A DNA stretch of 64,000 nt, taken from assembly GCA_017470165.1 (NCBI GenBank), contig JAFUEX010000024.1:75398-139397 (forward strand), written 5' to 3'. Shown here piece by piece: positions 5,490-59,040 of the stretch. The translations under genes and the position numbers were made by a program. Under the pieces are notes generated by a model. It saw only the letters and a list, made by a program, of their open reading frames with translations. It ran no database searches and was not told the origin of the DNA. The number at the start of each line of letters is the position of its first letter. The first letter of the stretch is position 1. This DNA is from Alphaproteobacteria bacterium (GTDB lineage: Bacteria > Pseudomonadota > Alphaproteobacteria > RF32 > CAG-239).

Positions 5490-5566
5490 CGCGGGGTGGA
5501 GCAGTTAGTTAGCTCGCTGGTTTCATACTCCAGAGGTCGATGGTGCAAATCCATCTCCCGCAACCA
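5490..5566 (+). tRNA. tRNA-Met (anticodon CAT), initiator-like, encoded by the phage.
   Basis: 77 nt beginning CGCGGGGTGGAGCAG and ending TCCCGCAACCA, similar to E. coli tRNA-fMet. It has a C1:A72 mismatch, a TTCATAC anticodon loop, a perfect T-arm and an encoded CCA. Confidence 0.8.
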
Positions 5567-5660: not shown

Positions 5661-5745
5661 AGGACTGTAGCTCAATGGTAGAGCGTTCTGTGTGCACAGA
5701 TTAAACCGAGCAGTTTGTATGTGGGTTCGACTCCCGCCGGTCCGA
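5661..5745 (+). ncRNA. tRNA-like sequence with a non-canonical anticodon arm; possibly a tRNA pseudogene or decoy.
   Basis: Acceptor, D-arm (GCTC-AATGGTA-GAGC) and T-arm (GTGGG-TTCGACT-CCCGC) are canonical. The anticodon region is a perfect 14-nt palindrome (TCTGTGTGCACAGA), which gives a 4-nt loop. A long hairpin-forming variable region follows. Confidence 0.45.
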
Positions 5746-5883
5746 CCTATTACTTATGTCTGAGAGAACGCCGGTCGGATCGGCTTAAGACAAAACAGCT
5801 TAACCGAAAAGATTGGCAAGGAACACCGGATGGTTGCAAACGTCTGGTGTTTTCTTTTTGACTTTCAAGAAGAACGTGCTCCT

Positions 5884-27354: not shown

Positions 27355-27499
27355 TTTATTTTGTCGCCATTTTTGGCTTCATGTGTTAACCCTCGGCGGT
27401 TTTTGTTCAACAAAACACGGAATGTATGAAATTCCGGGCAATATTTATATTGACTACTGTCCGAAGTGCCATTCTATACGGGGGCGCCATGAAAGATAA
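27335..27499 (+). CDS. 54-aa zinc-ribbon protein.
   Basis: MLQKIHSLFCRHFW...CPKCHSIRGRHER. It is embedded in the longer 27260-27499 track ORF in the same frame. Confidence 0.3.
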   Translation: MLQKIHSLFCRHFWLHVLTLGGFCSTKHGMYEIPGNIYIDYCPKCHSIRGRHER

Positions 27500-30147: not shown

Positions 30148-31164
30148 ATGAAAAAAACAGCAGAATTTGTGTCATTAGGGCATCCGGATAAAACAGCGGA
30201 TTTTATTTCGAGTTATGTGCTTGACCGTTTAATTGAGCAGGATCCTCACGTAAAATATGCGGTTGAGGTCATGGTTAAAGATAACGAGGTTATTTTGGGC
30301 GGTGAAGTCAAGGGTAACGTTGAGTTCTCTCTAGCCACCCTTCAAACTTGGATTTATGATGCCTTGGCAAAAATAGGCTATACCGAGGACTATTCAAAGC
30401 GGTGGGGTGTCAATGCCATCAATCCCTTAAAGGTTAACGTCACGAATTTAATCGGTAAACAGTCAGGAGATATCAACCAAGGCGTTGAAGCTGACGGCTG
30501 GGGTGATCAAGGTGTCTTTGTTGGCTACGCTTGCAAAAGTGAAGGCAAAGTCAGCCGAGAGCTCTTCCTTGCGCGTAAATTAAACCACGCTCTCTATGAA
30601 ATGGCCAAAACGAGCGAAAATTTTGGAATTGATATTAAAACGCAAATAACAATGAATGACATCGGCGGTGTCGAAACGGCGATTGTTGCGATTCCCATGC
30701 TCAAAGAGATTGATCTGCGCGACTTTGTCACTTCTGTTCTTGGCGAGGAGCCGGAGAATATCATTATAAACGGGACTGGTCGTTATGTTATGCATTCTTC
30801 TATTGCTGATTGCGGGGTTACCGGTCGTAAGCTCGCTTGCGACTTCTATTCTACAACTTGCGCCGTCGGTGGTGGTTCGCCATGGACAAAGGACGCCAGC
30901 AAGGCAGACGTTTCATTGAATATCCTTGCTCGCAAATTGGCTGTTGAAAATTTAGACGGTGCGCATGAATGCTGGGTTTATCTTTCTTCGTGCATTGGTC
31001 GCGCCGATTTGCCGTCCGTTGAGGTTGTTCGCAAGACTGGCATGGCGATCGGCTATAGAGATGTCAAGATTGGCAAACCGTCAGAAATTATCGAGGAGCT
31101 TGGGTTGAATAAGCCGGTATTCGCCGACTTGTGTGCTCGTGGTATTACCGAGGTTTATAAATAA
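30148..31164 (+). CDS. S-adenosylmethionine synthetase-like protein (short MetK).
   Basis: The N-terminal GHPDKTADFISSYVLD matches the MetK GHPDK signature. 338 aa against ~384 aa for bacterial MetK. Confidence 0.55.
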   Translation: MKKTAEFVSLGHPDKTADFISSYVLDRLIEQDPHVKYAVEVMVKDNEVILGGEVKGNVEFSLATLQTWIYDALAKIGYTEDYSKRWGVNAINPLKVNVTNLIGKQSGDINQGVEADGWGDQGVFVGYACKSEGKVSRELFLARKLNHALYEMAKTSENFGIDIKTQITMNDIGGVETAIVAIPMLKEIDLRDFVTSVLGEEPENIIINGTGRYVMHSSIADCGVTGRKLACDFYSTTCAVGGGSPWTKDASKADVSLNILARKLAVENLDGAHECWVYLSSCIGRADLPSVEVVRKTGMAIGYRDVKIGKPSEIIEELGLNKPVFADLCARGITEVYK

Positions 31165-31317: not shown

Positions 31318-31373
31318 ACCTCGTCAGGCTCATAACCTGAAGGTCGGAGGTTCAAATCCTCCCCCCGCAACCA
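31318..31373 (+). tRNA. 3' fragment of a host tRNA-Met(CAT) (fMet-like); candidate att core.
   Basis: CTCGTCAGGCTCATAACCTGAAGGTCGGAGGTTCAAATCCTCCCCCCGCAACCA matches E. coli tRNA-fMet from the D-stem onward. The 5' acceptor and D-arm are absent. Confidence 0.6.
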
Positions 31374-31384
31374 TTACACAGCAA

Positions 31385-31420
31385 GGCTTTGAAAGGCATT
31401 TCAAAGTCTTCTTTTTTTAC
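31385..31420 (+). terminator. Rho-independent terminator of the host tRNA gene.
   Basis: ctttgaaaggcatttcaaag hairpin followed by a T7 run. Confidence 0.6.
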
Positions 31421-31876
31421 TCATTTTTAGTCGGGGTAATACTGGGGCAATAATTGAAATTAAATAATATTAATGTTTTCAGCCATCAGGCAAAAAAAAC
31501 GGAGCTCCGCTATATTCAGCATAATTTTATTTTCTGCTTGCTTTTCATAAATTTTTTCGTTACGAATCTAAGTATGTTAATGATTTTATCATTAGCATTG
31601 AGTGCCTGCCAAAGGTGCAAGAGAGCTGTCGTAAGCTCATATCTACTTCGGTGTTAGGATATAACATCGTTATATTGTTAGCTGTTCGTAGCGGCTTACA
31701 ATAAATATATCCCCGATTCATAGCAATATGGTCGGGGAGCTCTTAGCGGATGTCCAAGAGCCATATTGCAAAAATATGTTTCTAAAGGTTAAGAGAATCA
31801 TTTAAGTAGATATGATTTACGAACTCTCCGACCACCTGTAACAGGGTGGTTTAACTTTTTTATAGAGAGTTTTATA

Positions 31877-32515
31877 ATGAGAAATACTTTTTTATTGGCG
31901 GGTGTCGTCGTTTCTTTATTTGCTTTTAATGCAAATGCTTTAGATTTTCAGCAATATGTTTCAGTTAAGGCTACTTACAGCGATATGAATAATACGGTCA
32001 AGGATCACAAGACATATCACGTTGTAGAGCCTGGTAAAGTTTCTGGAACTTATAAGACTTCTTTAGATGATGAGGTCTTTGGTGGTAGCTTTGCTTATGG
32101 CGTTAAGATGAATGCCGTTAGAACAGAACTAGAATTGAATTTACACCAAGAAGCAAAGAAAACTATTCATGAGGTAGATGGAAATGCAAAAATTAAAATA
32201 AAAAATAATTCCGCCTTTTTGAATGCTTACTATGATATTGATACTGGAACTAAATTTACGCCTTATATCGGTGGTGGTTTGGGTGTTGCTCGCATTAAAG
32301 TCAGTGGTACAAAATCTTCTGATGAATTTGCTTGGCAATTAGGTGCCGGTGTTTCTTATGCTGCAACCGAAAATATATCTGTTGATTTAGGGTATAGATA
32401 TATAGATTATGGTTCACATACAATTAATAGAGAAGTAACAGCAAGAAAAACAAGCAAAACAGATTTCGAGTCTGATTCTAACGAATTTTATTTAGGTGTT
32501 AGATACGCATTCTAA
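31877..32515 (+). CDS. Outer-membrane beta-barrel protein (Omp25/Omp31/OmpA-like small barrel).
   Basis: Has a signal peptide, alternating amphipathic strands and a terminal aromatic (YLGVRYAF). Low GC. Confidence 0.55.
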   Translation: MRNTFLLAGVVVSLFAFNANALDFQQYVSVKATYSDMNNTVKDHKTYHVVEPGKVSGTYKTSLDDEVFGGSFAYGVKMNAVRTELELNLHQEAKKTIHEVDGNAKIKIKNNSAFLNAYYDIDTGTKFTPYIGGGLGVARIKVSGTKSSDEFAWQLGAGVSYAATENISVDLGYRYIDYGSHTINREVTARKTSKTDFESDSNEFYLGVRYAF

Positions 32516-33593
32516 GATTAATGAATAAGAGCAATTTTATTTTTCATAGAGGGGCTGAGTTTTCACAAAGCCCCTTTTTCCGTTCTAAAGAAAAGAGGAC
32601 TCCCTAGGAGTTTTATACGGTCTTTAAGAAAGGGATTTATCAATGGCAACATTCGAAGACGGCGAAAAAGTAAGAATTAACAAACAATATCAGGAAATTG
32701 TTCGGAAAATTCCACTTTCAGCACCTTTGGATTTAAGGCGGGCGGTTGAAGTTGCCGCTCGGATTATTTTCTGTATCTGACTTTCCAACTACCTTGACTG
32801 TTCAGATGGCAGATAGCGCAAGAAAGTATCTTTGAACTGAGATTTTTATATCTGCACTTATCCGCTAGTCAACTGAAAAGGTCAGTCCGTTTGCCGATAC
32901 TTTAGCTTTTTTTCTCTTTCTTTGAAATAATTTTCAATATATTCACTTACCTGTTCGTTTTTTTCATCAACTGAAAAATACATACCGCCACAGGTATCGT
33001 GAAAATGAAGTTCGATTCCAAAATTTTCTTTTATTTTCTTCTTTAGATCTATAACAATATTTAACATATTTTCTACTGCCTGTTAAAATATATTTTTGTA
33101 TTATAATATAATTTATTTATTTTTTTCTATTATATTTTTTAGGGAAGAGCATGAAAAGATTTTAATTTTGAACAAACTAAAATTATCATTAAAAAAATCA
33201 ACATGTTAATTCGGTATAATTTTCCTTTTTTGTTAGTCTTGCACAACCAGTAAAATCAAGGCTTTCAGAGTTTTCTGGAAGCCTTTAATTTTTGCCAGTG
33301 CTACGCAGGTGCTACACCATTTTTTGGAAATTTAGTCTTGGTTCGGTTGCTTAAAAGCGATTAAAAATCCCCGATTTCCCTTGTGAATAAAAAATGTTAA
33401 AGAAGTCTCATTCTTTAACATTTTCTCTGGAATTGCCTAAAATACTATAGTTTTGAAAATGGCTAAAATACCGAATATAAAAAATGTTAAACTTTGTTCG
33501 GATTACAAACATTATTTAACATTCATACAATACTTTCACATTGACTTTTGAAATGCAAAAATTAATATTAATTTCAATATGACGAGGTAACAC

Positions 33594-34670
33594 ATGAAAA
33601 AATTTGTTTTGATTTCTAGTTTGTTAATAGCTTTTAGTATCAATGTTTGGGCTAATGAAACTAAAAATTCGGCTTGGGAGGGTCTTTGGGATTATCAAAG
33701 ATATGCAGTAAATCCCTCCGGCGTTTTAGAAATAACTGATTGTCAAAATAATTTGTGCCATTTTAGTATTAATACTGCCAATGGGGCACATACTTGTATG
33801 CTTGAAGGAAAATTAAAAACAAGTGCTTATAAAGCTGAATATAGGGAAAAAATAGAAACAGCAGAAGGTAAGTATGATGATATCGTTATTACATTTGAAC
33901 TGAATCCCGATAAAAACTTTATAGAGATAGATGCAAATTATGCTTCTCGTATGTATTGCGGTATGCAAGGATATTTTATTGGCAAATATGAAAATCAAAA
34001 CAATCCGCTACGTTATGATACTGGTTTTGATTGCTGGGCAAAAGATTTAACAGATACACAAAAAATTATTTGCGCTGAAGAAGAATTAGCTCGTGCTGAT
34101 AAAGAGATGACTGAAAATTATCAATCCGAACAAACAAACGAATGGTATAATAAACGGGAAATTTGCCATAATGATAAAAGATGTCTGTGGGAATTTTATA
34201 TTTCTTCCATAAAGTCCGCTTATGAGAAGAAAAATAACAAATCTGTTAATTTCTATGAATACATGGGTAATTTGTCAGATGATACCCCATATTATCCGAC
34301 AGATTTTTCTTTACTTTATGATTTTTTCATCAAAAATATGCAAAACAAAGATTTTGAACAGTGGAAAGTTGCTTTTTCTCAAATTTCTATGGACAATAGT
34401 AAATGTAATCAATGTCGTTACCATGAATATGGTTTGCCTGGTTTATATACCATTGCGGAATCAGCTTTTTATATCAACAAAAATGAAATATGGCTTGCTT
34501 TTTTACACATTGATAATGATACAAATAAAAAGCATATAGTGATATATGCTATGCCTGATAGGGAAGAAAAAGATATTCCTGCTGAATTTGACAACTGGCT
34601 GGATCGCTTAAAAGAACATTTTCCTGATGGAATTAAACTAAAGTATTTTACCGACACAAAAAATAAGTGA
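33594..34670 (+). CDS. Secreted DUF1311 (LprI-like) domain protein.
   Basis: Signal peptide. The DTQKIICAEEELARADKEMTENYQ motif is typical of the DUF1311/LprI N-terminal domain. Very AT-rich. Confidence 0.45.
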   Translation: MKKFVLISSLLIAFSINVWANETKNSAWEGLWDYQRYAVNPSGVLEITDCQNNLCHFSINTANGAHTCMLEGKLKTSAYKAEYREKIETAEGKYDDIVITFELNPDKNFIEIDANYASRMYCGMQGYFIGKYENQNNPLRYDTGFDCWAKDLTDTQKIICAEEELARADKEMTENYQSEQTNEWYNKREICHNDKRCLWEFYISSIKSAYEKKNNKSVNFYEYMGNLSDDTPYYPTDFSLLYDFFIKNMQNKDFEQWKVAFSQISMDNSKCNQCRYHEYGLPGLYTIAESAFYINKNEIWLAFLHIDNDTNKKHIVIYAMPDREEKDIPAEFDNWLDRLKEHFPDGIKLKYFTDTKNK

Positions 34671-34915
34671 ATGATATCGTTTTTTATTAATACATTTAAT
34701 GACTTTTAAAAGATATCATTCACTTTAATATTAAGGATATTTTCTCAATAATTCCAGAGCTTTTGCATTTTCAAGAGTAAATCGGTTGTTAGTAATGTTA
34801 TTTCTGTAGGATGCTGAGCTATTTCTGAAATTATTGGGATTTCCTCTTTCAGTTTGGTAACGGTTTCTGATTCGGAGTTTATGTTTTTGCATAGGGTGTC
34901 TTTATATTGATTGCA

Positions 34916-35482
34916 CTAAGATTTTGATTGTTTGGCTTCGGACTCGTTTTGGGTTTGGGCTGCTTCCTTATCAGCAGTTTGTGACTGCGCTTTGCTCTCT
35001 TCTGCCTGAAGTTTTTCATACTCTTCTTCAGTAATCTCTTGGGGGAGATTTTTGTTGACTTCATTGACGGTGCTGTTCTGCGATGTGCCGTCAACTTTCA
35101 AAGTGTCACCGAATTCGCTTGCGCTGATGCCGGTCGGCTTGAAGGCTACTTGTGCTGAGAGGTTGGTTTGACTGCGGTCGGTAAAATAGTCAATCAACAT
35201 TCCCATCCAAGAGATGAGAAACAGGCCGATAGCCAAAGAGCCAAACCATTTCCAGTTGATTTTGCCCCAGATACAGCCCCAGGCCAGACCGACCAAGCCG
35301 AATCCGCCCAAACAATAGGCAATGTATTTGAACTCGTTGATGGCAGTGGCGGCGCGGGAACGAATCGTAAAGAGGATGGAGGCCTCAGCCGATGTGATGC
35401 AGACGCCCAAGGCCAGCAGAATTACGCAGAATACCAAGCATAAGCGGCGGAAGTCGAGGGAAAAAGAAAATAGTTTGGTCAT
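34916..35482 (-). CDS. VirB2/TrbC-like pilin paralog.
   Basis: AGGAGG ribosome-binding site. Hydrophobic leader plus GGFGLVGLAWGCIWGKINWKWFGSLAIGLFLISW, shared with the two neighbouring paralogs. Confidence 0.55.
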   Translation of the reverse strand: MTKLFSFSLDFRRLCLVFCVILLALGVCITSAEASILFTIRSRAATAINEFKYIAYCLGGFGLVGLAWGCIWGKINWKWFGSLAIGLFLISWMGMLIDYFTDRSQTNLSAQVAFKPTGISASEFGDTLKVDGTSQNSTVNEVNKNLPQEITEEEYEKLQAEESKAQSQTADKEAAQTQNESEAKQSKS

Positions 35483-35492
35483 GGTGTCCTCC

Positions 35493-35948
35493 TTAGCGTA
35501 GGCTGCGGGCGTTGGATTTTTTGAGGGTGTCTTCCCAATTTTTTTCGTTGGGGGCATATTTGGTCATATCACCGCTGAGAGAGTCTTCTTTGTCGTTACC
35601 GGCTTGGGATAGAGTGTTGGAAACACCGAAAGTTTTGCCGCCGGTCATTAACTGGACAATGCCGCCGGCAGTGGCCATAACTACCAGCGAGATGAGGATG
35701 GCACCCAGCCATTTCCAATTGAGGTTGCCAAAGATGCCTCCGACGCCGACGGCAACAATGCCGAATCCGGCGACGATGTAAATCAAATCGCGCAATTCAG
35801 AGAATATTTTAAGACCACTGGCGACCAAGGCAGAGAAGAGGCCGGAACCGCCGGTGGAGGTGTCGGCGGCAAAGGCCAAGGCCGGCAGCAGACACAAGCA
35901 CAAGGCCGGCAGCAAAATCAATCGGGTAGGAAACTTTTTACTTGGCAT
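35493..35948 (-). CDS. VirB2/TrbC-like pilin paralog.
   Basis: Signal peptide plus AGFGIVAVGVGGIFGNLNWKWLGAILISLVVMATAGGIV. Confidence 0.55.
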   Translation of the reverse strand: MPSKKFPTRLILLPALCLCLLPALAFAADTSTGGSGLFSALVASGLKIFSELRDLIYIVAGFGIVAVGVGGIFGNLNWKWLGAILISLVVMATAGGIVQLMTGGKTFGVSNTLSQAGNDKEDSLSGDMTKYAPNEKNWEDTLKKSNARSLR

Positions 35949-36143
35949 TGTAGTTCTCCGCTTGCGGTTAATGGTTTTTTGGTTCAGTGACTATCAGGCT
36001 ATTGCATTGTTGGTGTTTTTTTGTGTGGGGGACCACGTTTGTCCTTTCGTTTTCTTTCGTCTTTCCTTTAGCGTGACAGGAAAGGGGGTGTCCGCTCAGG
36101 GGGCGGTGCCTTGTGGTCATGGGATGCCTTATTCGCCGCTTAA

Positions 36144-36244
36144 GCGGCTCAGGCATGACAGGACAAGAGAGGCGGCTCAGGCATGACAGGACAAGAGAGG
36201 CGGCTCAGGCATGACAGGACAAGAGAGGTCGCTCAGGCATGACA
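36144..36244. repeat. 28-bp tandem repeat (gcggctcaggcatgacaggacaagagag) x3.3 within a repeat-dense intergenic tract.
   Basis: Three exact units plus a partial fourth. Related dispersed copies lie at 36070-36110 and 36630-36710. Inverted tgtcaccgctgagcg copies lie at 36255-36330. Confidence 0.85.
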
Positions 36245-36860
36245 TTCTATTATTGTCACCGCTGAGCGAGGAACGAGCGAATAAGCGATCTCTTTTTTTA
36301 TGTCACCGCTGAGTGCCGCAAGGCACGAATAAGCGGTCGCATGAGCCTAAAAACGTTTCTTTTTACGTTACTTTTGTACGCACAAAAGTAACCAAAAAGC
36401 GTCGGGCTATTCGCCGCGGGGCGGTTTTTTTCAAGGCATAGGGCTGCGACCTACTTACACGCGACCAGAAAGCGCGTGACGAGGTCGCAAAAGGATGACC
36501 ATCGCCAGCCTTGAGAAAAAGCCGCTGTTTCCCGCTTTGCTCATCAAGCCCGAAGCTAAAGGTTTTTTTGTTGTCACTGTGCCTTGTGACGATGAGACCC
36601 CTGATTTTTCTGCGGTGCATACCGCAGAAAAAGGGGTGACAGGACAAGAGAGGCGGCTCAGGGGTGACAAGAAAGGGGGTGTCCGCTCAGGGGTGACAGG
36701 ATGGGAAAAAACACTGGATAGTGCAATAGTATAATAGTTACAATAATTTAACTCAGGTGGTTTTGAGTTTGCTGATATCTCCTGAGGATGAAGGGGATAT
36801 GGGTAAGCTCAAAGAGGGGTGGTAGAGGGGAGGGCGAACCCTCCCCAATGGATATATGAC

Positions 36861-37238
36861 CTAGTTCTCACCAAAGCTATAAGTATCACCCATACCACCC
36901 GTATTAGTAAGGCTTTGGTTGCCTGTACCCTGACCTGTGGTATTTGTGGTGGCGTATTCAACAATAGCACCGGCAGCTGCCAAGATACCCAAACCGACGG
37001 CTAAGGCGGCAAACCATTTCCAGTTGATTTTGCCGAAGATAGCGGCGAAGGCGATACCTACCAAACCGAAACCGCCGACGATGTAGATGATGGTGCGCAC
37101 GGCCTTAAAAGCCTCCAAGGCCTTACCTGCAGCAATTCCCATCACGGAAGCGGCGGCGGCAGCTTGTTCAATCAAGCCGAACATAGCGGCAAACATTACG
37201 ATCCCGAATGTCCAAATGTTTTTGCGAATAAAGTTCAT
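36861..37238 (-). CDS. VirB2/TrbC-like pilin paralog.
   Basis: GGFGLVGIAFAAIFGKINWKWFAALAVGLGILAAAGAIV matches the other two paralogs. Confidence 0.55.
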   Translation of the reverse strand: MNFIRKNIWTFGIVMFAAMFGLIEQAAAAASVMGIAAGKALEAFKAVRTIIYIVGGFGLVGIAFAAIFGKINWKWFAALAVGLGILAAAGAIVEYATTNTTGQGTGNQSLTNTGGMGDTYSFGEN

Positions 37239-37390
37239 ATCAGTTCTCCTTTTTTAAATTTTGCAAAACTTAACTTACAATTATATTGTAACGCATTCTG
37301 GAAGATTTTACCAGTGAAAATGTTTTTAGCACAAAAAGGTTAAGATATTGTTTATGGGGAGAAAATTTTGCTGTAACAAAAAATTCATCT

Positions 37391-37942
37391 TTAGCGGCCG
37401 CGGGTGGAGGTGCGCTCGAGGTCTTGGGCAAGCAGGCGCTGGCGTATGAGCTCGTATTCTTTGGCGCGGCGCTGGCGCTCTTTTTGCTCGGCAGGGGTTT
37501 CGCGATGGTTAGCCTTGGCGGCGCGCAAGGCGATGAGCTTGTTGAGCAGAGCTTTTTGCGAGAGGCCTTGGGTGGCCTCGGTGAGAAAAGAGGTGATGTT
37601 GGCCGGGGTGAGCAGCGCCTCGATATCGACCGAAGAGAGCAGAGAATCGCGGGCGATGATTTGGTTGAGCTCGACATTGAGCGCTTCTTCCCAATCGGTG
37701 TCGTCATCATCGTCGAGGCCGGAGGAGATGATTTTGAGCAGGGATTCCTTGAACAATTTGTTGACCAATTTGAGAAAATTGCGAGGGGTTACCGTGCCGT
37801 TGGCCGAGGCGCGCATCAGGGCAAACAACAGCAGATTTTTGACATATTTTTTCTGGAGGGACGAGAGCTTGAGGTTGCCGCGGATGCCGGCTTTGGCGGC
37901 GGCGAGGACAGTGTTGCGTTCGGCGGTGAAATTATAGGCCAT
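37391..37942 (-). CDS. Hypothetical protein.
   Basis: GC-rich ORF with a coherent frame. Several overlapping opposite-strand ORFs are judged spurious. Confidence 0.4.
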   Translation of the reverse strand: MAYNFTAERNTVLAAAKAGIRGNLKLSSLQKKYVKNLLLFALMRASANGTVTPRNFLKLVNKLFKESLLKIISSGLDDDDDTDWEEALNVELNQIIARDSLLSSVDIEALLTPANITSFLTEATQGLSQKALLNKLIALRAAKANHRETPAEQKERQRRAKEYELIRQRLLAQDLERTSTRGR

Positions 37943-38468
37943 GGGGGTCTCCTTGATAAAAAGCGGTGAGCAGAGGCTGAAAGGCGGCGGCAACTTGGGC
38001 ATAGACTTCGCGTTTGAAGCTGACCGCCAATGCGGGGGCTAAGAGCAGACTGTCCCAGCGCGAGGCTTTGAACTCTATCTCCTCGGGGCGGACGGCAAAA
38101 TTGAGCTCGGGCTCAGGGGTGGTGAGGGCAAACAAAAACCAATGCTGCTCTTGCCCGATATAGTCGGCAAGGCGGAAGGGGGGCGGAAAATCATAGCGCA
38201 AGGGCTGCGGCAGGGCGGCGATGAGCTTTACCGCGGTGAGGCCGGTTTCTTCGTAAAGCTCGCGATAGGCGGCAGATAAAGGAGATTCGCCGGAATCGAT
38301 GCCGCCTTGGGGAAACTGCCAGCATAAATCCGGTTGGTCGGCGCGGGCACAATACAAAACCTGAGAGGCCGAGCGCGCAACAATGATGCCGACATTGGGG
38401 CGATAGCGGCCGGAAGAGAGCCTTGATGAGGTGTTTGGCGAATCTGAAGCGGAAAAAGCTGACATCAT
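37932..38468 (-). CDS. rppH: RNA pyrophosphohydrolase (Nudix).
   Basis: Nudix box GGIDSGESPLSAAYRELYEETGL. Conserved neighbourhood with ctpA. Confidence 0.65.
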   Translation of the reverse strand: MMSAFSASDSPNTSSRLSSGRYRPNVGIIVARSASQVLYCARADQPDLCWQFPQGGIDSGESPLSAAYRELYEETGLTAVKLIAALPQPLRYDFPPPFRLADYIGQEQHWFLFALTTPEPELNFAVRPEEIEFKASRWDSLLLAPALAVSFKREVYAQVAAAFQPLLTAFYQGDPHGL

Positions 38469-58374: not shown

Positions 58375-59040
58375 TTGATATTTTGGGTGGCCGGAGCTTT
58401 TTTGTGGGGAATGATGACGCCTTATATGGCAAGGCGTTTTGCTAAGTTTATGCCGGCTACTTTGGCTTGTGCGGTGGTGGAGCTTTTGCGAATCGAGAAA
58501 CGCGGCAAAAATTATCGTAAAACAGATTTGTATAAAAAACTGGTATGGCGCTCGGTGATGGCGGGGTTGATTAATGCGATGCTGACGTTGGGCGTATGGG
58601 TGTTTTTGGCCAAGCCGGAGCTTGCGACGGTTTATGTTTGGGTGTTGCTTTTGGCTGCTGAGATTGATATCAGGATGTTTGTGCTGCCGGATATTTTGAC
58701 CATACCGCTGATGATAATCGGAATAGCTGCGGCTTATGCCGGATTTGGCGTGGTGACGATAGACGAGAGTGTATGGGGCGCGCTGGCGGGATATTTTCTG
58801 CCGGCGGCGGTGAGTTTGCTGGTGGTATGGTATCGGCGAGATGCTTTTGGCGGCGGAGATATAAAACTGCTGGCGGCTGTCGGGGCGTGGCTGGGAGTTG
58901 AAGGATTGTTGTATGTGATTGCCGTTGCTTCAGTTTTGGGATTGGTGACGGCGGCGGTGCAAAAAAAGCGCGAGTTGGCTTTCGGGCCGATGTTGGCAGT
59001 GGCCGGAATAGCGATGATGTTTTGGATTGGGATAAAATAA
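58375..59040 (+). CDS. A24-family prepilin peptidase (CpaA/TadV-like).
   Basis: Multi-transmembrane protein with the GGGDIKLLAAVGAWLG motif. Confidence 0.6.
   Translation: MIFWVAGAFLWGMMTPYMARRFAKFMPATLACAVVELLRIEKRGKNYRKTDLYKKLVWRSVMAGLINAMLTLGVWVFLAKPELATVYVWVLLLAAEIDIRMFVLPDILTIPLMIIGIAAAYAGFGVVTIDESVWGALAGYFLPAAVSLLVVWYRRDAFGGGDIKLLAAVGAWLGVEGLLYVIAVASVLGLVTAAVQKKRELAFGPMLAVAGIAMMFWIGIK

What the first reader, a model, noticed from the sequence alone, without database searches (positions are those of the whole stretch)
34916..37238. Three tandem VirB2/TrbC-like pilin paralogs without adjacent T4SS machinery genes.
The three minus-strand genes share the GGFGLVG...FGKINWKWF...LAVGLGIL core but diverge at both termini, with tail lengths of 125, 151 and 189 aa.

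Tandem amplification of virB2 with scattered T4SS loci is characteristic of some obligate intracellular alphaproteobacteria and is linked to surface antigenic diversity. Seeing it here next to housekeeping genes suggests a similar diversification strategy.
Basis: partly seen in the sequence, partly recalled or inferred. Interest (0 to 1): 0.55.

Follow-up and report, generated by a model that had tools for sequence, protein, structure and literature searches.

The report
Detached trio of VirB2-like pilin genes
Three neighbouring genes in an uncultured ruminant-gut alphaproteobacterium encode three old, distinct versions of the pilin (VirB2) subunit of a type IV secretion system; in most related species this trio sits directly in front of the secretion machinery genes, but here it stands alone among housekeeping genes.

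Summary
Three intact minus-strand genes lie at 36861-37238 (125 aa), 35493-35948 (151 aa) and 34916-35482 (188 aa). They share a signal peptide, two hydrophobic helices and a GFG...NWKW core. All three hit Pfam TrbC/VirB2: 27.5, 30.4 and 17.4 bits against a cut-off of 27.9.

The "recent tandem amplification" reading is not supported. Among 80 species-representative loci of related gut and rumen alphaproteobacterial MAGs, 64 carry exactly three such genes in the same order: a (~114 aa), b (~150 aa) and c (124-2058 aa, the VirB2 hairpin plus huge variable extensions). In 63 loci the array lies directly upstream of virB3-virB4. The window genes are orthologues of a, b and c, and dN/dS is 0.10-0.20.

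The window holds no T4SS machinery gene, and neither does about 19 kb further left. The closest relatives also carry detached trios. In one of them the trio and a trio-less virB3-virB4 cluster sit on separate contigs of the same assembly.

The adjacent 48-kb prophage, integrated in tRNA-fMet, did not cause the split. I could not locate VirB4 in the window's own MAG.

Best reading: these are pilin-type subunits of a split chromosomal T4SS. This is a new variant of a known theme (Anaplasma, Bartonella Trw and Patescibacteria VirB2 arrays).

The parts
36861..37238 (-). g1 = paralogue 'a' (125 aa): canonical short VirB2-like pilin, the most conserved of the three
   Evidence: Pfam TrbC 27.5 bits against a cut-off of 27.9. 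100% identical to NCBI MAG protein IJ529_04765. 892 homologues, nearly all of those listed pre-annotated as PF04956. The AF2 model shows a signal helix at 3-28, helices at 34-68 and 73-100, and a disordered tail. 68-82% identical to the 'a' genes of relatives. dN/dS 0.15-0.18.
35949..36860 (.). Abnormally long, repeat-rich spacer between g1 and g2: a 28-bp unit x3.6 at 36144-36244, with related copies at 36073-36102 and 36625-36693
   Evidence: The a-b spacing in 63 relatives has a median of 100 bp and a maximum of 380 bp. The repeat occurs nowhere else in the window or in the 104 fetched loci, except in the same contig. There is no Rfam match. Two other assemblies of this species break inside it.
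35493..35948 (-). g2 = paralogue 'b' (151 aa): second VirB2-like subunit
   Evidence: Pfam TrbC 30.4 bits, above the cut-off of 27.9. 55-62% identical to the second gene of the trio in L004, L091 and L094. Signal peptide ending ALAFA|AD, two hydrophobic helices and a 49-aa polar tail. dN/dS about 0.10.
34916..35482 (-). g3 = paralogue 'c' (188 aa): VirB2-like hairpin plus an 89-aa E/S/Q/K-rich tail. It is a short version of a paralogue that reaches 2058 aa in relatives
   Evidence: Pfam TrbC 17.4 bits, below the cut-off. An orthologue (L053 c) scores 42.8 bits. 52-60% identical over the core to the c genes of L091 and L094. Positions of the hairpin inside c proteins come. dN/dS about 0.20. The start at 35482 has an AAGGAGG Shine-Dalgarno sequence.
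37239..37390 (-). AT-rich 150-bp region upstream of g1, a presumed promoter region (inferred only)
   Evidence: Sequence. The sigma-70 consensus scan found no minus-strand hit here, so this is inference from position and composition only.

Best explanation
The three genes encode three anciently diverged, non-redundant VirB2/TrbC-type subunits (a, b, c) of a chromosomally inherited VirB-like type IV secretion system. This system is characteristic of a clade of gut and rumen Alphaproteobacteria.

Each protein would be exported by Sec and would insert as a helical hairpin with a short cytoplasmic loop (G-K/N-x-N-W-K-W). By analogy with solved VirB2/TraA pili, both termini would then lie on the periplasmic side and, after assembly, on the outer face of the pilus.

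- Paralogue a (short, 73% mean identity across species) is the likely major pilin.
- Paralogue b is probably an accessory or minor subunit.
- Paralogue c probably uses the pilin hairpin as an anchor to display variable sequence. Here that sequence is only an 89-aa acidic, probably disordered tail; elsewhere it reaches about 2000 aa.

In this organism and its nearest relatives the trio has been separated from virB3-virB4 and the rest of the machinery, and forms its own small operon among housekeeping genes. The system is therefore split over at least two loci.

Shown: family membership, orthology, conserved order, purifying selection, detachment in this window, and the split arrangement in relatives.

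Inferred: topology, pilus incorporation, the division of labour between a, b and c, and the presence of the machinery elsewhere in this particular genome.
For: **Family membership**
- Pfam TrbC/VirB2 hits for all three genes, with g2 above the gathering score.
- An orthologue of c scores 42.8 bits.
- Signal peptide plus two-helix architecture.

**Conserved trio linked to the machinery in relatives**
- 64 of 80 related species loci have exactly three VirB2-HMM ORFs in tandem.
- In 63 loci the array is followed by virB3-virB4, with a median of 441 bp between the last pilin-like ORF and virB4.

**Orthology of the three positions**
- Positional classes behave as orthologous groups. Identity within a class is 0.73, 0.63 and 0.53 for a, b and c, against 0.32-0.36 between classes.
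- 185 of 192 sequences have at least 4 of their 5 nearest neighbours in the same class.

**The window genes look functional and native**
- dN/dS 0.10-0.20 for all three, compared with relatives that include detached ones.
- Intact ORFs with Shine-Dalgarno sequences.
- GC content of the trio is 49-53%, like the host flank (51.6%). The neighbouring island is 32% and the prophage 45%.

**Split arrangement in relatives**
- Detached trios occur in the closest relatives: L091 (76% identity) and L094/L096 (68%).
- Machinery clusters without any VirB2-like ORF in any frame occur in the same subclade: L089, L097, L101, L103.
- L094/L096 (trio) and L103/L104 (machinery) come from the same sample, ERZ922531, and the same assembly, GCA_900089725.1.
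Against: - VirB4 or any other machinery gene of the window's own MAG (GCA_017480825.1, locus tags IJ529_) could not be found among the listed homologues or cluster members. A T4SS in this genome is therefore not demonstrated.
- GCA_900089725.1 may be a whole-metagenome assembly, so 'same assembly' need not mean 'same genome'.
- g1 and g3 individually fall below Pfam's gathering score.
- Sequence and fold searches against solved structures gave no specific VirB2/TraA match, as expected for a simple hairpin modelled at pLDDT 63.
- The 912-bp repeat insertion between g1 and g2 may uncouple g2-g3 from the g1 promoter. No promoter or terminator was convincingly predicted on the minus strand.
- No expression or protein data exist.
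Confidence: 0.68

Rival explanations
1. One reading: a lineage-specific tandem amplification of virB2 that produces interchangeable, antigenically diverse surface subunits. This is what is proposed for Anaplasma/Ehrlichia virB2 arrays and Bartonella trwL arrays.
For: - The genes are tandem VirB2 paralogues away from the machinery.
- Divergence is concentrated at the termini.
- Precedents: A. phagocytophilum has 8-15 virB2 copies with hypervariable N- and C-proximal regions in split vir loci (PMC3556328). Tandem VirB2 arrays in Bartonella and Patescibacteria are interpreted in the same way (bioRxiv 10.1101/2025.01.22.634366).
- A few relatives do have an extra 'a' copy: 5 loci have 4 hits.
Against: - The copy number is three in 64 of 80 species loci, and the order is conserved.
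- Each window gene is far closer to its positional orthologue in other species (55-82% in the core) than to its neighbours (about 30%).
- The three classes differ systematically in length and architecture. They are differentiated components, not interchangeable variants.
- dN/dS is 0.1-0.2, with no sign of diversifying selection over the alignable parts.
Confidence: 0.1
2. Orphan remnant or co-opted genes: the T4SS machinery has been lost from this genome. The three small membrane proteins either persist as decaying relics or serve another envelope function.
For: - No machinery gene lies in about 83 kb around the trio.
- No VirB4 attributable to this MAG was found.
- The c paralogue here has one of the shortest extensions of its class, at 188 aa against a median of 866.
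- An insertion of about 800 bp of repeats has landed between g1 and g2.
Against: - All three ORFs are intact and have good ribosome-binding sites.
- dN/dS is 0.10-0.20 even against other detached lineages.
- The g1 region is identical or nearly so in three assemblies from different samples: 100%, 100% and 99.94%.
- VirB4 is very highly conserved (79-92%) throughout the clade, which argues that the system is core.
- Relatives with detached trios occur in the same assembly as trio-less machinery clusters.
Confidence: 0.17
3. Cargo of a mobile element: the trio belongs to the adjacent prophage or low-GC island, or to a degraded conjugative element, and not to a chromosomal T4SS.
For: The trio lies 3.5 kb from the end of a 48-kb prophage and directly beside a 32%-GC island. 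The trio sits in different genomic contexts in the window, L091 and L094.
Against: - The prophage ends at its 54-bp attR (31320-31373), a repeat of the tRNA-fMet 3' end. The trio lies outside it.
- The GC content of the trio matches the host flank, not the island or the phage.
- Orthologues are part of a vertically conserved chromosomal operon in 63 species.
- No relaxase, coupling protein or integrase lies next to the trio.
Confidence: 0.04

Closest known systems
Agrobacterium-type VirB2 / RP4 TrbC pilins (Pfam PF04956, MPF-T type IV secretion systems)
   Same: [quoted passage not shown] In relatives, the gene is placed immediately upstream of virB3-virB4. Profile match to PF04956.
   Different: There are three differentiated paralogues per system instead of one. 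Paralogue c carries extensions of up to about 2000 aa on either side of the hairpin in relatives. In this genome the genes are not in the virB operon. Whether the proteins are cyclised or C-terminally processed like VirB2/TrbC is unknown. The comparison with VirB2/TrbC processing rests on my own knowledge of those systems.
virB2 paralogue arrays of the split Rickettsiales vir homologue (rvh) T4SS in Anaplasma and Ehrlichia
   Same: An alphaproteobacterial T4SS with vir genes in several loci and several tandem virB2 paralogues that vary mainly near the termini (PMC3556328). Other T4SS subunits there (VirB6) carry very large repetitive extensions, reminiscent of paralogue c.
   Different: - In Anaplasma the copy number is 8-15 and differs between strains, and the array sits next to virB4-2. 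Here the number is fixed at three orthologous classes across more than 60 species, and the array in this window has no vir neighbour.
- The rvh hallmarks (duplicated VirB4/8/9, multicopy VirB6, no VirB5; PMC11077975) were not tested.
- The hosts are gut-associated MAGs, not known intracellular bacteria.
Bartonella Trw system (tandem trwL = virB2 copies)
   Same: Tandemly repeated VirB2 homologues thought to diversify a surface pilus used for adhesion rather than transfer (PMC2883598, listed; summarised).
   Different: The trwL copies lie inside the trw operon, together with amplified trwJIH, and arose by recent amplification. The trio here is ancient, differentiated and detached.
VirB2-like pilin arrays of Patescibacteria (CPR)
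   Same: Arrays of 2-11 highly divergent VirB2-like genes, about 25% identical to each other, tandem and sometimes away from virB4 (bioRxiv 10.1101/2025.01.22.634366). This is the closest numerical parallel to a trio that is about 30% identical.
   Different: That lineage has a different T4SS class (monoderm MPF-FATA-like). No fixed three-class organisation or giant pilin fusions are reported there.

Membership tests
TrbC/VirB2 pilin family (Pfam PF04956) | Profile HMM score at or above the curated gathering score (27.9 bits) | tested here: met
   g2 scores 30.4 bits. The orthologue of g3 in L053 scores 42.8 bits. Most of the 120 listed homologues of g1 carry a precomputed PF04956 hit. g1 alone scores 27.5 bits, 0.4 below the cut-off, and g3 alone scores 17.4 bits, so those two qualify only through their orthologues and paralogue.
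TrbC/VirB2 pilin family (Pfam PF04956) | Signal peptide followed by two hydrophobic alpha-helices joined by a short charged loop | tested here: met
   Hydropathy analysis gives three hydrophobic segments in each protein. The AF2 model of g1 shows helices at 3-28, 34-68 and 73-100, with a loop at 69-72 (GKIN) (pLDDT only 62.9).
TrbC/VirB2 pilin family (Pfam PF04956) | Encoded within or next to a T4SS gene cluster (typically just upstream of virB3-virB4) | tested here: not met
   Not met in this window: no T4SS gene lies in the 64 kb or about 19 kb further left. It is met for the orthologues in 63 of 80 related species loci.
TrbC/VirB2 pilin family (Pfam PF04956) | Structural similarity to solved VirB2/TraA pilin subunits | tested here: inconclusive
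   The profile search of PDB sequences gave no pilin hit (best E 0.46, an unrelated virion protein). Foldseek returned only generic helical hairpins with E above 1.
TrbC/VirB2 pilin family (Pfam PF04956) | Polymerises into the T4SS pilus or is required for secretion; maturation by signal-peptide cleavage and, in some systems, cyclisation | not testable with these tools
   Needs experiments.
Rickettsiales (rvh)-type virB2 arrays | Several tandem virB2 paralogues, with vir genes split over separate loci | tested here: inconclusive
   Tandem paralogues and isolation from the machinery are confirmed for the window. A second, machinery-only locus is shown only in relatives, not in this genome.
Rickettsiales (rvh)-type virB2 arrays | Copy number and sequence variable between strains or species (8-15 in A. 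phagocytophilum; PMC3556328) | tested here: not met
   There are three copies in 64 of 80 species loci, forming orthologous positional classes.
Rickettsiales (rvh)-type virB2 arrays | rvh hallmarks: duplicated VirB4, VirB8 and VirB9, multicopy VirB6, no VirB5 (PMC11077975) | not tested
   Only about 10 kb downstream of virB4 was available in relatives. The proteins there have no Pfam hits except a VirB8 at the end of L089.
Bartonella Trw-type trwL arrays | Recently amplified, near-identical virB2 copies inside the T4SS operon, alongside amplified virB5-like genes | tested here: not met
   The paralogues are only about 30% identical to each other, they are ancient, and here they lie outside any T4SS operon.

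The most novel reading that the evidence does not exclude
This clade of gut and rumen Alphaproteobacteria may build a T4SS filament from three dedicated VirB2-type subunits. In this reading the third subunit is a 'pilin-anchored display protein': its hairpin inserts into the pilus lattice, and extensions of up to about 2000 residues, with no known domain, are presented on the pilus surface on the N-terminal side, the C-terminal side or both. They would act as a fast-evolving adhesin or host-contact module, functionally replacing a VirB5-type tip protein.

The window would then show the minimal form (an 89-aa tail) in a sub-lineage where the filament genes have become a separate transcription unit. 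That would allow the filament to be regulated independently of the secretion channel.
Probability: 0.3. Interest if true: 0.7.

Novelty: new variant of a known kind. Interest (0 to 1): 0.45.

Why it matters
VirB2 arrays are usually discussed as antigenic-variation devices of intracellular pathogens. Here the same gene family forms a fixed, differentiated three-member set in a large, uncultured group of gut commensals or symbionts. One member is fused, in relatives, to enormous variable regions.

If the three proteins co-assemble, this would be a heteropolymeric or decorated T4SS pilus, which has no described precedent that I could find. It would also point to contact-dependent interactions (with host cells, protists or other bacteria) as a core trait of these poorly known gut Alphaproteobacteria.

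The detached arrangement in this window is a natural case for asking whether filament and channel genes can be regulated separately. For annotation, it shows that 'hypothetical proteins' of 110-2000 aa in these MAGs are VirB2 derivatives.

Tried and rejected
1. **VirB4 of the window's own MAG.** I searched with the VirB4 of the closest species representative and listed members of 20 clusters. No IJ529_ tag or GCA_017480825.1 record appeared, so the question stays open.

2. **Did the prophage split the operon?** I walked left of the window in two steps. The prophage ends at an integrase and tRNA-fMet, and the host genes beyond it are cca and ialB-like. No vir genes are there. attR was mapped at 31320-31373, so the idea is rejected.

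3. **Remnants of vir genes or the c tail.** tblastn against the window found no remnants of virB3, virB4 or a longer c tail.

4. **A linked neighbour gene.** The 203-aa ORF upstream of g1 (37391-38002) is unrelated to the 178-aa proteins next to the trios of L091 and L094. It has no Pfam hit, and gene callers disagree on its strand.

5. **Solved structures.** The PDB sequence-profile search and Foldseek on the AF2 model were uninformative.

6. **Other protein libraries.** NCBIfam gave no hit for any of the three proteins.

7. **Non-coding RNA in the spacer.** Rfam found nothing in the 912-bp spacer.

8. **Domains in the long extensions.** Pfam on eight c paralogues found nothing significant in the extensions. 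Pfam on the proteins downstream of virB4 in relatives found nothing beyond weak coiled-coil-type hits.

9. **Strict monophyly.** A strict NJ monophyly test of the a, b and c classes failed. A few mislabelled ORFs were responsible: frameshifted or overlapping calls in L038, L040 and L052, and a two-domain ORF in L078. I replaced it with a nearest-neighbour test.

10. **Prior description.** A literature search for 'RF32' plus 'type IV secretion' returned nothing.
Full report
**What is there.**
- g1: 37238..36861, 125 aa.
- g2: 35948..35493, 151 aa.
- g3: 35482..34916, 188 aa.

All three appear in the ORF list and the sequence. The g3 start at 35482 has an AAGGAGG ribosome-binding site and lies 10 nt after the g2 stop. 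An independent gene call on the same contig also gives 188 aa. The alternative 213-aa start overlaps g2.

The three proteins align over a common core...Y-x-x-G-F-G..., G-K/N-x-N-W-K-W, and a second hydrophobic stretch. Overall identity is about 27-34%, and the ends diverge. The similarity is significant: g2 vs g3 gives BLASTP E 1.7e-10.

**What family.**
All three hit Pfam TrbC/VirB2 (PF04956) as their best family.
- g2 scores 30.4 bits, above the 27.9-bit gathering score.
- g1 scores 27.5 bits, just under it.
- g3 scores 17.4 bits.

NCBIfam has no model that matches.

Each protein has an N-terminal signal-like hydrophobic segment and two further hydrophobic helices. After those come polar tails of 28, 49 and 89 aa. 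An AlphaFold2 model of g1 gives a signal helix at 3-28, helices at 34-68 and 73-100 joined by a four-residue loop, and a disordered tail. Its confidence is modest, at pLDDT 62.9. Comparison with solved structures by sequence profile and by fold was uninformative, as expected for a bare hairpin.

**Whose genome.**
g1 is 100% identical to a protein of an NCBI MAG labelled 'Alphaproteobacteria bacterium' (locus tag IJ529_04765, assembly GCA_017480825.1). It occurs on contigs of up to 173 kb from ruminant gut metagenomes. The window is identical to those contigs.

The family has 892 detectable homologues, essentially all from gut, rumen or bioreactor metagenomes. One species-representative locus belongs to Candidatus Scatocola faecigallinarum, which NCBI places in Rhodospirillales.

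**The key comparative result.**
A scan of one genome per species returned 80 related loci. I called ORFs in all of them, searched with an HMM of the family, and searched with the proteins of one relative's operon.
- 64 of the 80 loci have exactly three VirB2-HMM ORFs in tandem. Five have four. The loci with fewer are mostly truncated contigs.
- In 63 loci the array is followed at once by virB3 and virB4. The median distance from the end of the last pilin-like ORF to the start of virB4 is 441 bp, which is just virB3.
- Three loci have at least 6 kb of downstream sequence without virB4. Fourteen are too short to judge.

The three positions are distinct orthologous classes.
- Mean core identity is 0.73 within a, 0.63 within b and 0.53 within c.
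- Identity between classes is only 0.32-0.36.
- 185 of 192 sequences have at least 4 of their 5 nearest neighbours from other loci in the same positional class. The exceptions trace to overlapping or fused ORF calls.

The window's g1, g2 and g3 fall in classes a, b and c respectively. The triplication therefore predates the radiation of this clade. It is not a local amplification.

**Architecture of the classes.**
- Class a is short and uniform: median 114 aa, range 111-157.
- Class b is somewhat longer: median 150 aa, range 112-310. The extra sequence often lies between the signal peptide and the first helix.
- Class c is extraordinarily variable: median 866 aa, range 124-2058. The VirB2 hairpin lies 70-843 residues from the N-terminus and 112-1325 residues from the C-terminus.

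The class c extensions have no significant Pfam domain. One c orthologue scores 42.8 bits against PF04956. The window's c, at 188 aa with an E/S/Q/K-rich tail, is near the minimum.

A motif of the form hydrophobic-x-D-T/S-hydrophobic recurs 30-55 residues after the W-x-W loop. Examples are MGDTY in g1, WEDTL in g2 and FGDTL in g3. Under a strict pattern it occurs in 35/60 a, 21/60 b and 11/60 c proteins. Its meaning is unknown. A processing or recognition site is possible, but that is speculation.

**The window's peculiarity: detachment.**
No T4SS machinery gene is present in the window.
- The left 31 kb is prophage: capsid E, portal, gpA terminase, D5-type primase, methylases and an S24 repressor.
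- On the right of the trio lie rppH, a divergent polysaccharide deacetylase, ctpA, an M23 peptidase, gpmI, a class A PBP, pssA and psd.
- Further right lie rsmB, leuS, holA, a prepilin peptidase, map, sfsA and uppP.
- tblastn with relatives' VirB3 and VirB4 finds nothing.

I tested whether the prophage had split the operon, and it did not.
- Walking left of the window shows that the phage continues with Mu-like tail and baseplate genes, an Mtd-like fibre plus reverse transcriptase, lysis genes and an integrase. It ends at a tRNA-fMet.
- The 3' 54 nt of that tRNA are repeated exactly at window 31320-31373.
- The prophage is therefore about 48.3 kb and ends 3.5 kb short of g3.
- The host genes on its far side are cca and an IalB-like gene, not vir genes.

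Between attR and g3 lies a 32%-GC island with a beta-barrel OMP and a 358-aa secreted protein of unknown family. The trio itself has host-like GC content, at 49-53% against 51.6% for the right flank.

**Detachment is shared with the nearest relatives, and their machinery lies elsewhere.**
The two closest relatives for which longer contigs exist also have a stand-alone trio among housekeeping genes.
- L091 (a 76% identical): rplQ | a127 b142 c335 | an acyl-carrier-protein block.
- L094/L096 (a 68% identical): ACP-yceG-ACP | a121 b144 c289 | ybjN, lgt.

Conversely, VirB4 proteins 90-92% identical to that of the closest species representative lie in clusters that begin with virB3-virB4. They continue with six or seven unannotated proteins and VirB8. 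Upstream are only housekeeping genes: aroK-like, ROK and xerC-like, or ubiE-like and dnaJ. No VirB2-like ORF occurs in any frame of those loci, even at E up to 10.

The trio locus L094/L096 and the machinery locus L103/L104 come from the same sample (ERZ922531) and the same NCBI assembly (GCA_900089725.1). That assembly may be a metagenome rather than a single genome. Even so, a trio without machinery and machinery without a trio make a complementary pair, which is what a split system predicts.

**Are the window's genes alive?**
- The ORFs are intact and have ribosome-binding sites.
- The region is identical or 99.94% identical in three assemblies from different samples.
- Nei-Gojobori dN/dS against L091, L094 and L006 is 0.15-0.18 for g1, about 0.10 for g2 and about 0.20 for g3. 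Synonymous sites are near or at saturation, so these are rough values, but they are clearly below 1.

One irregularity is the g1-g2 spacer. It is 912 bp, against a median of 100 bp and a maximum of 380 bp in 63 relatives. It consists largely of a locus-specific repeat: a 28-bp unit x3.6 plus dispersed copies. It has no Rfam match. Other assemblies break inside it. Whether g2-g3 are still co-transcribed with g1 is unknown. The consensus scans gave no convincing minus-strand promoter or terminator.

**What I could not establish.**
I could not show that this particular genome has the T4SS machinery. The VirB4 search listed 120 close homologues and I examined 20 clusters. None could be tied to GCA_017480825.1. 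The MAG is fragmented, and names are available for only a minority of proteins, so this is absence of evidence.

**Interpretation.**
The best-supported reading (confidence about 0.68) is this. g1-g3 are the a, b and c VirB2-type subunits of a vertically inherited, chromosomal VirB-like T4SS. In this sub-lineage the system is encoded at two or more loci.

By analogy with VirB2/TraA pili, both ends of the hairpin should face the periplasm and then the outside of the filament. This step rests on my knowledge of those structures and was not tested here. On that basis a would be the major pilin, and b and c would be accessory subunits whose extensions are surface-displayed.

The rivals are as follows.
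- Recent amplification for antigenic variation (about 0.10). The fixed orthologous triad contradicts it.
- Orphan or co-opted remnants after loss of the T4SS (about 0.17). This is not excluded, but purifying selection and the relatives argue against it.
- Mobile-element cargo (about 0.04). The att mapping and base composition contradict it.

**Relation to what is known.**
Tandem VirB2 arrays and split vir loci are established in three settings.
- Anaplasma and Ehrlichia: 8-15 strain-variable copies with hypervariable termini (PMC3556328).
- The Bartonella Trw system (PMC2883598).
- Patescibacteria, recently described: arrays of 2-11 pilin genes about 25% identical to each other (bioRxiv 10.1101/2025.01.22.634366).

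The present case shares the theme but differs in three ways. The set is fixed and differentiated into three classes. In relatives, one class is a giant pilin fusion. In this organism the array is a free-standing unit. Full-text searches for RF32 plus 'type IV secretion', and for gut Alphaproteobacteria MAGs plus type IV secretion and VirB2, turned up no description of this system.

I therefore rate it a new variant of a known kind, of moderate interest (0.45). The most novel reading still open is a decorated or heteropolymeric T4SS pilus in a widespread gut lineage. That reading would deserve about 0.7 if shown.

Noticed in passing
window 1-31373 (continues about 16.9 kb left of the window; L105): A prophage of about 48.3 kb is integrated into tRNA-fMet. 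An exact 54-bp copy of the tRNA 3' end sits at 31320-31373 (attR). The full tRNA plus integrase lie at the other end. The phage has a lambda-like head (capsid E, portal, gpA terminase), a Mu-like baseplate, two phage-borne tRNA-like genes (5490-5566, 5661-5747), several DNA methylases and a divergent S-adenosylmethionine-synthetase-like gene (30148-31164). Outside the window it carries an Mtd-like tail fibre next to a reverse transcriptase, which looks like a diversity-generating retroelement.
   Followed up: partly
window 31374-34915: A 32%-GC island lies between the prophage attR and g3. It holds a beta-barrel outer-membrane protein (31877-32515; OMP_b-brl / Surface_Ag_2 hits) and a 358-aa signal-peptide protein (33594-34670) with no Pfam hit even at E 0.1.
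   Followed up: partly
window 35949-36860: The repeat-rich 912-bp spacer between g1 and g2 holds a 28-bp unit x3.6 (36144-36244), related copies at 36073-36102 and 36625-36693, and a plus-strand terminator-like hairpin at 36411-36434. The repeat is found nowhere else in the window or in the 104 fetched loci. It gives no Rfam match and causes contig breaks in two other assemblies. Its origin and function are unexplained.
   Followed up: partly
L004-L085 (relatives), e.g. L017:11182-17358, L050:1593-7721, L008:11220-16781: Paralogue c of the trio reaches 1853-2058 aa, with the VirB2 hairpin embedded mid-protein. There are up to 843 aa before it and 1325 aa after it. The extensions have no recognisable domain. 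Some b paralogues also carry 100-200 extra residues after the signal peptide.
   Followed up: partly
g1 residues 115-119, g2 136-140, g3 123-127; a/b/c proteins of the relatives: A recurrent hydrophobic-x-D-T/S-hydrophobic motif (MGDTY, WEDTL, FGDTL) lies 30-55 residues after the W-x-W loop in all three paralogue classes. Under a strict pattern it occurs in 35/60 a, 21/60 b and 11/60 c proteins. It may be a processing or recognition site.
   Followed up: partly
window 58375-59040; L004 26-9396: The window encodes a type IV prepilin peptidase (Peptidase_A24). In relative L004 a T2SS/type-IV-pilus-like cluster (secretin, T2SSE, T2SSF, PilO-like, TcpQ-like) lies divergently next to the VirB2-virB4 operon. 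The lineage therefore has a second filament system.
   Followed up: no
window 47359-49437: A second low-GC patch (32%) lies beside tRNA-Leu (47359-47445). It holds a 566-aa ORF (47737-49437) with no Pfam hit and is possibly another small genomic island.
   Followed up: no
window 37391-38002: The ORF between rppH and g1 has no family hit. Gene callers disagree on its strand: 181 aa on one strand in L001, 183 aa on the other in L002 and L003. Three long overlapping ORFs occupy both strands here, so the coding status of this 0.6-kb stretch is uncertain.
   Followed up: partly
window 27389-27489: ARAGORN reports a 101-nt 'tRNA-His' (anticodon ATG) inside the prophage. Rfam does not detect it at its gathering score, so it is probably a false positive.
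   Followed up: no
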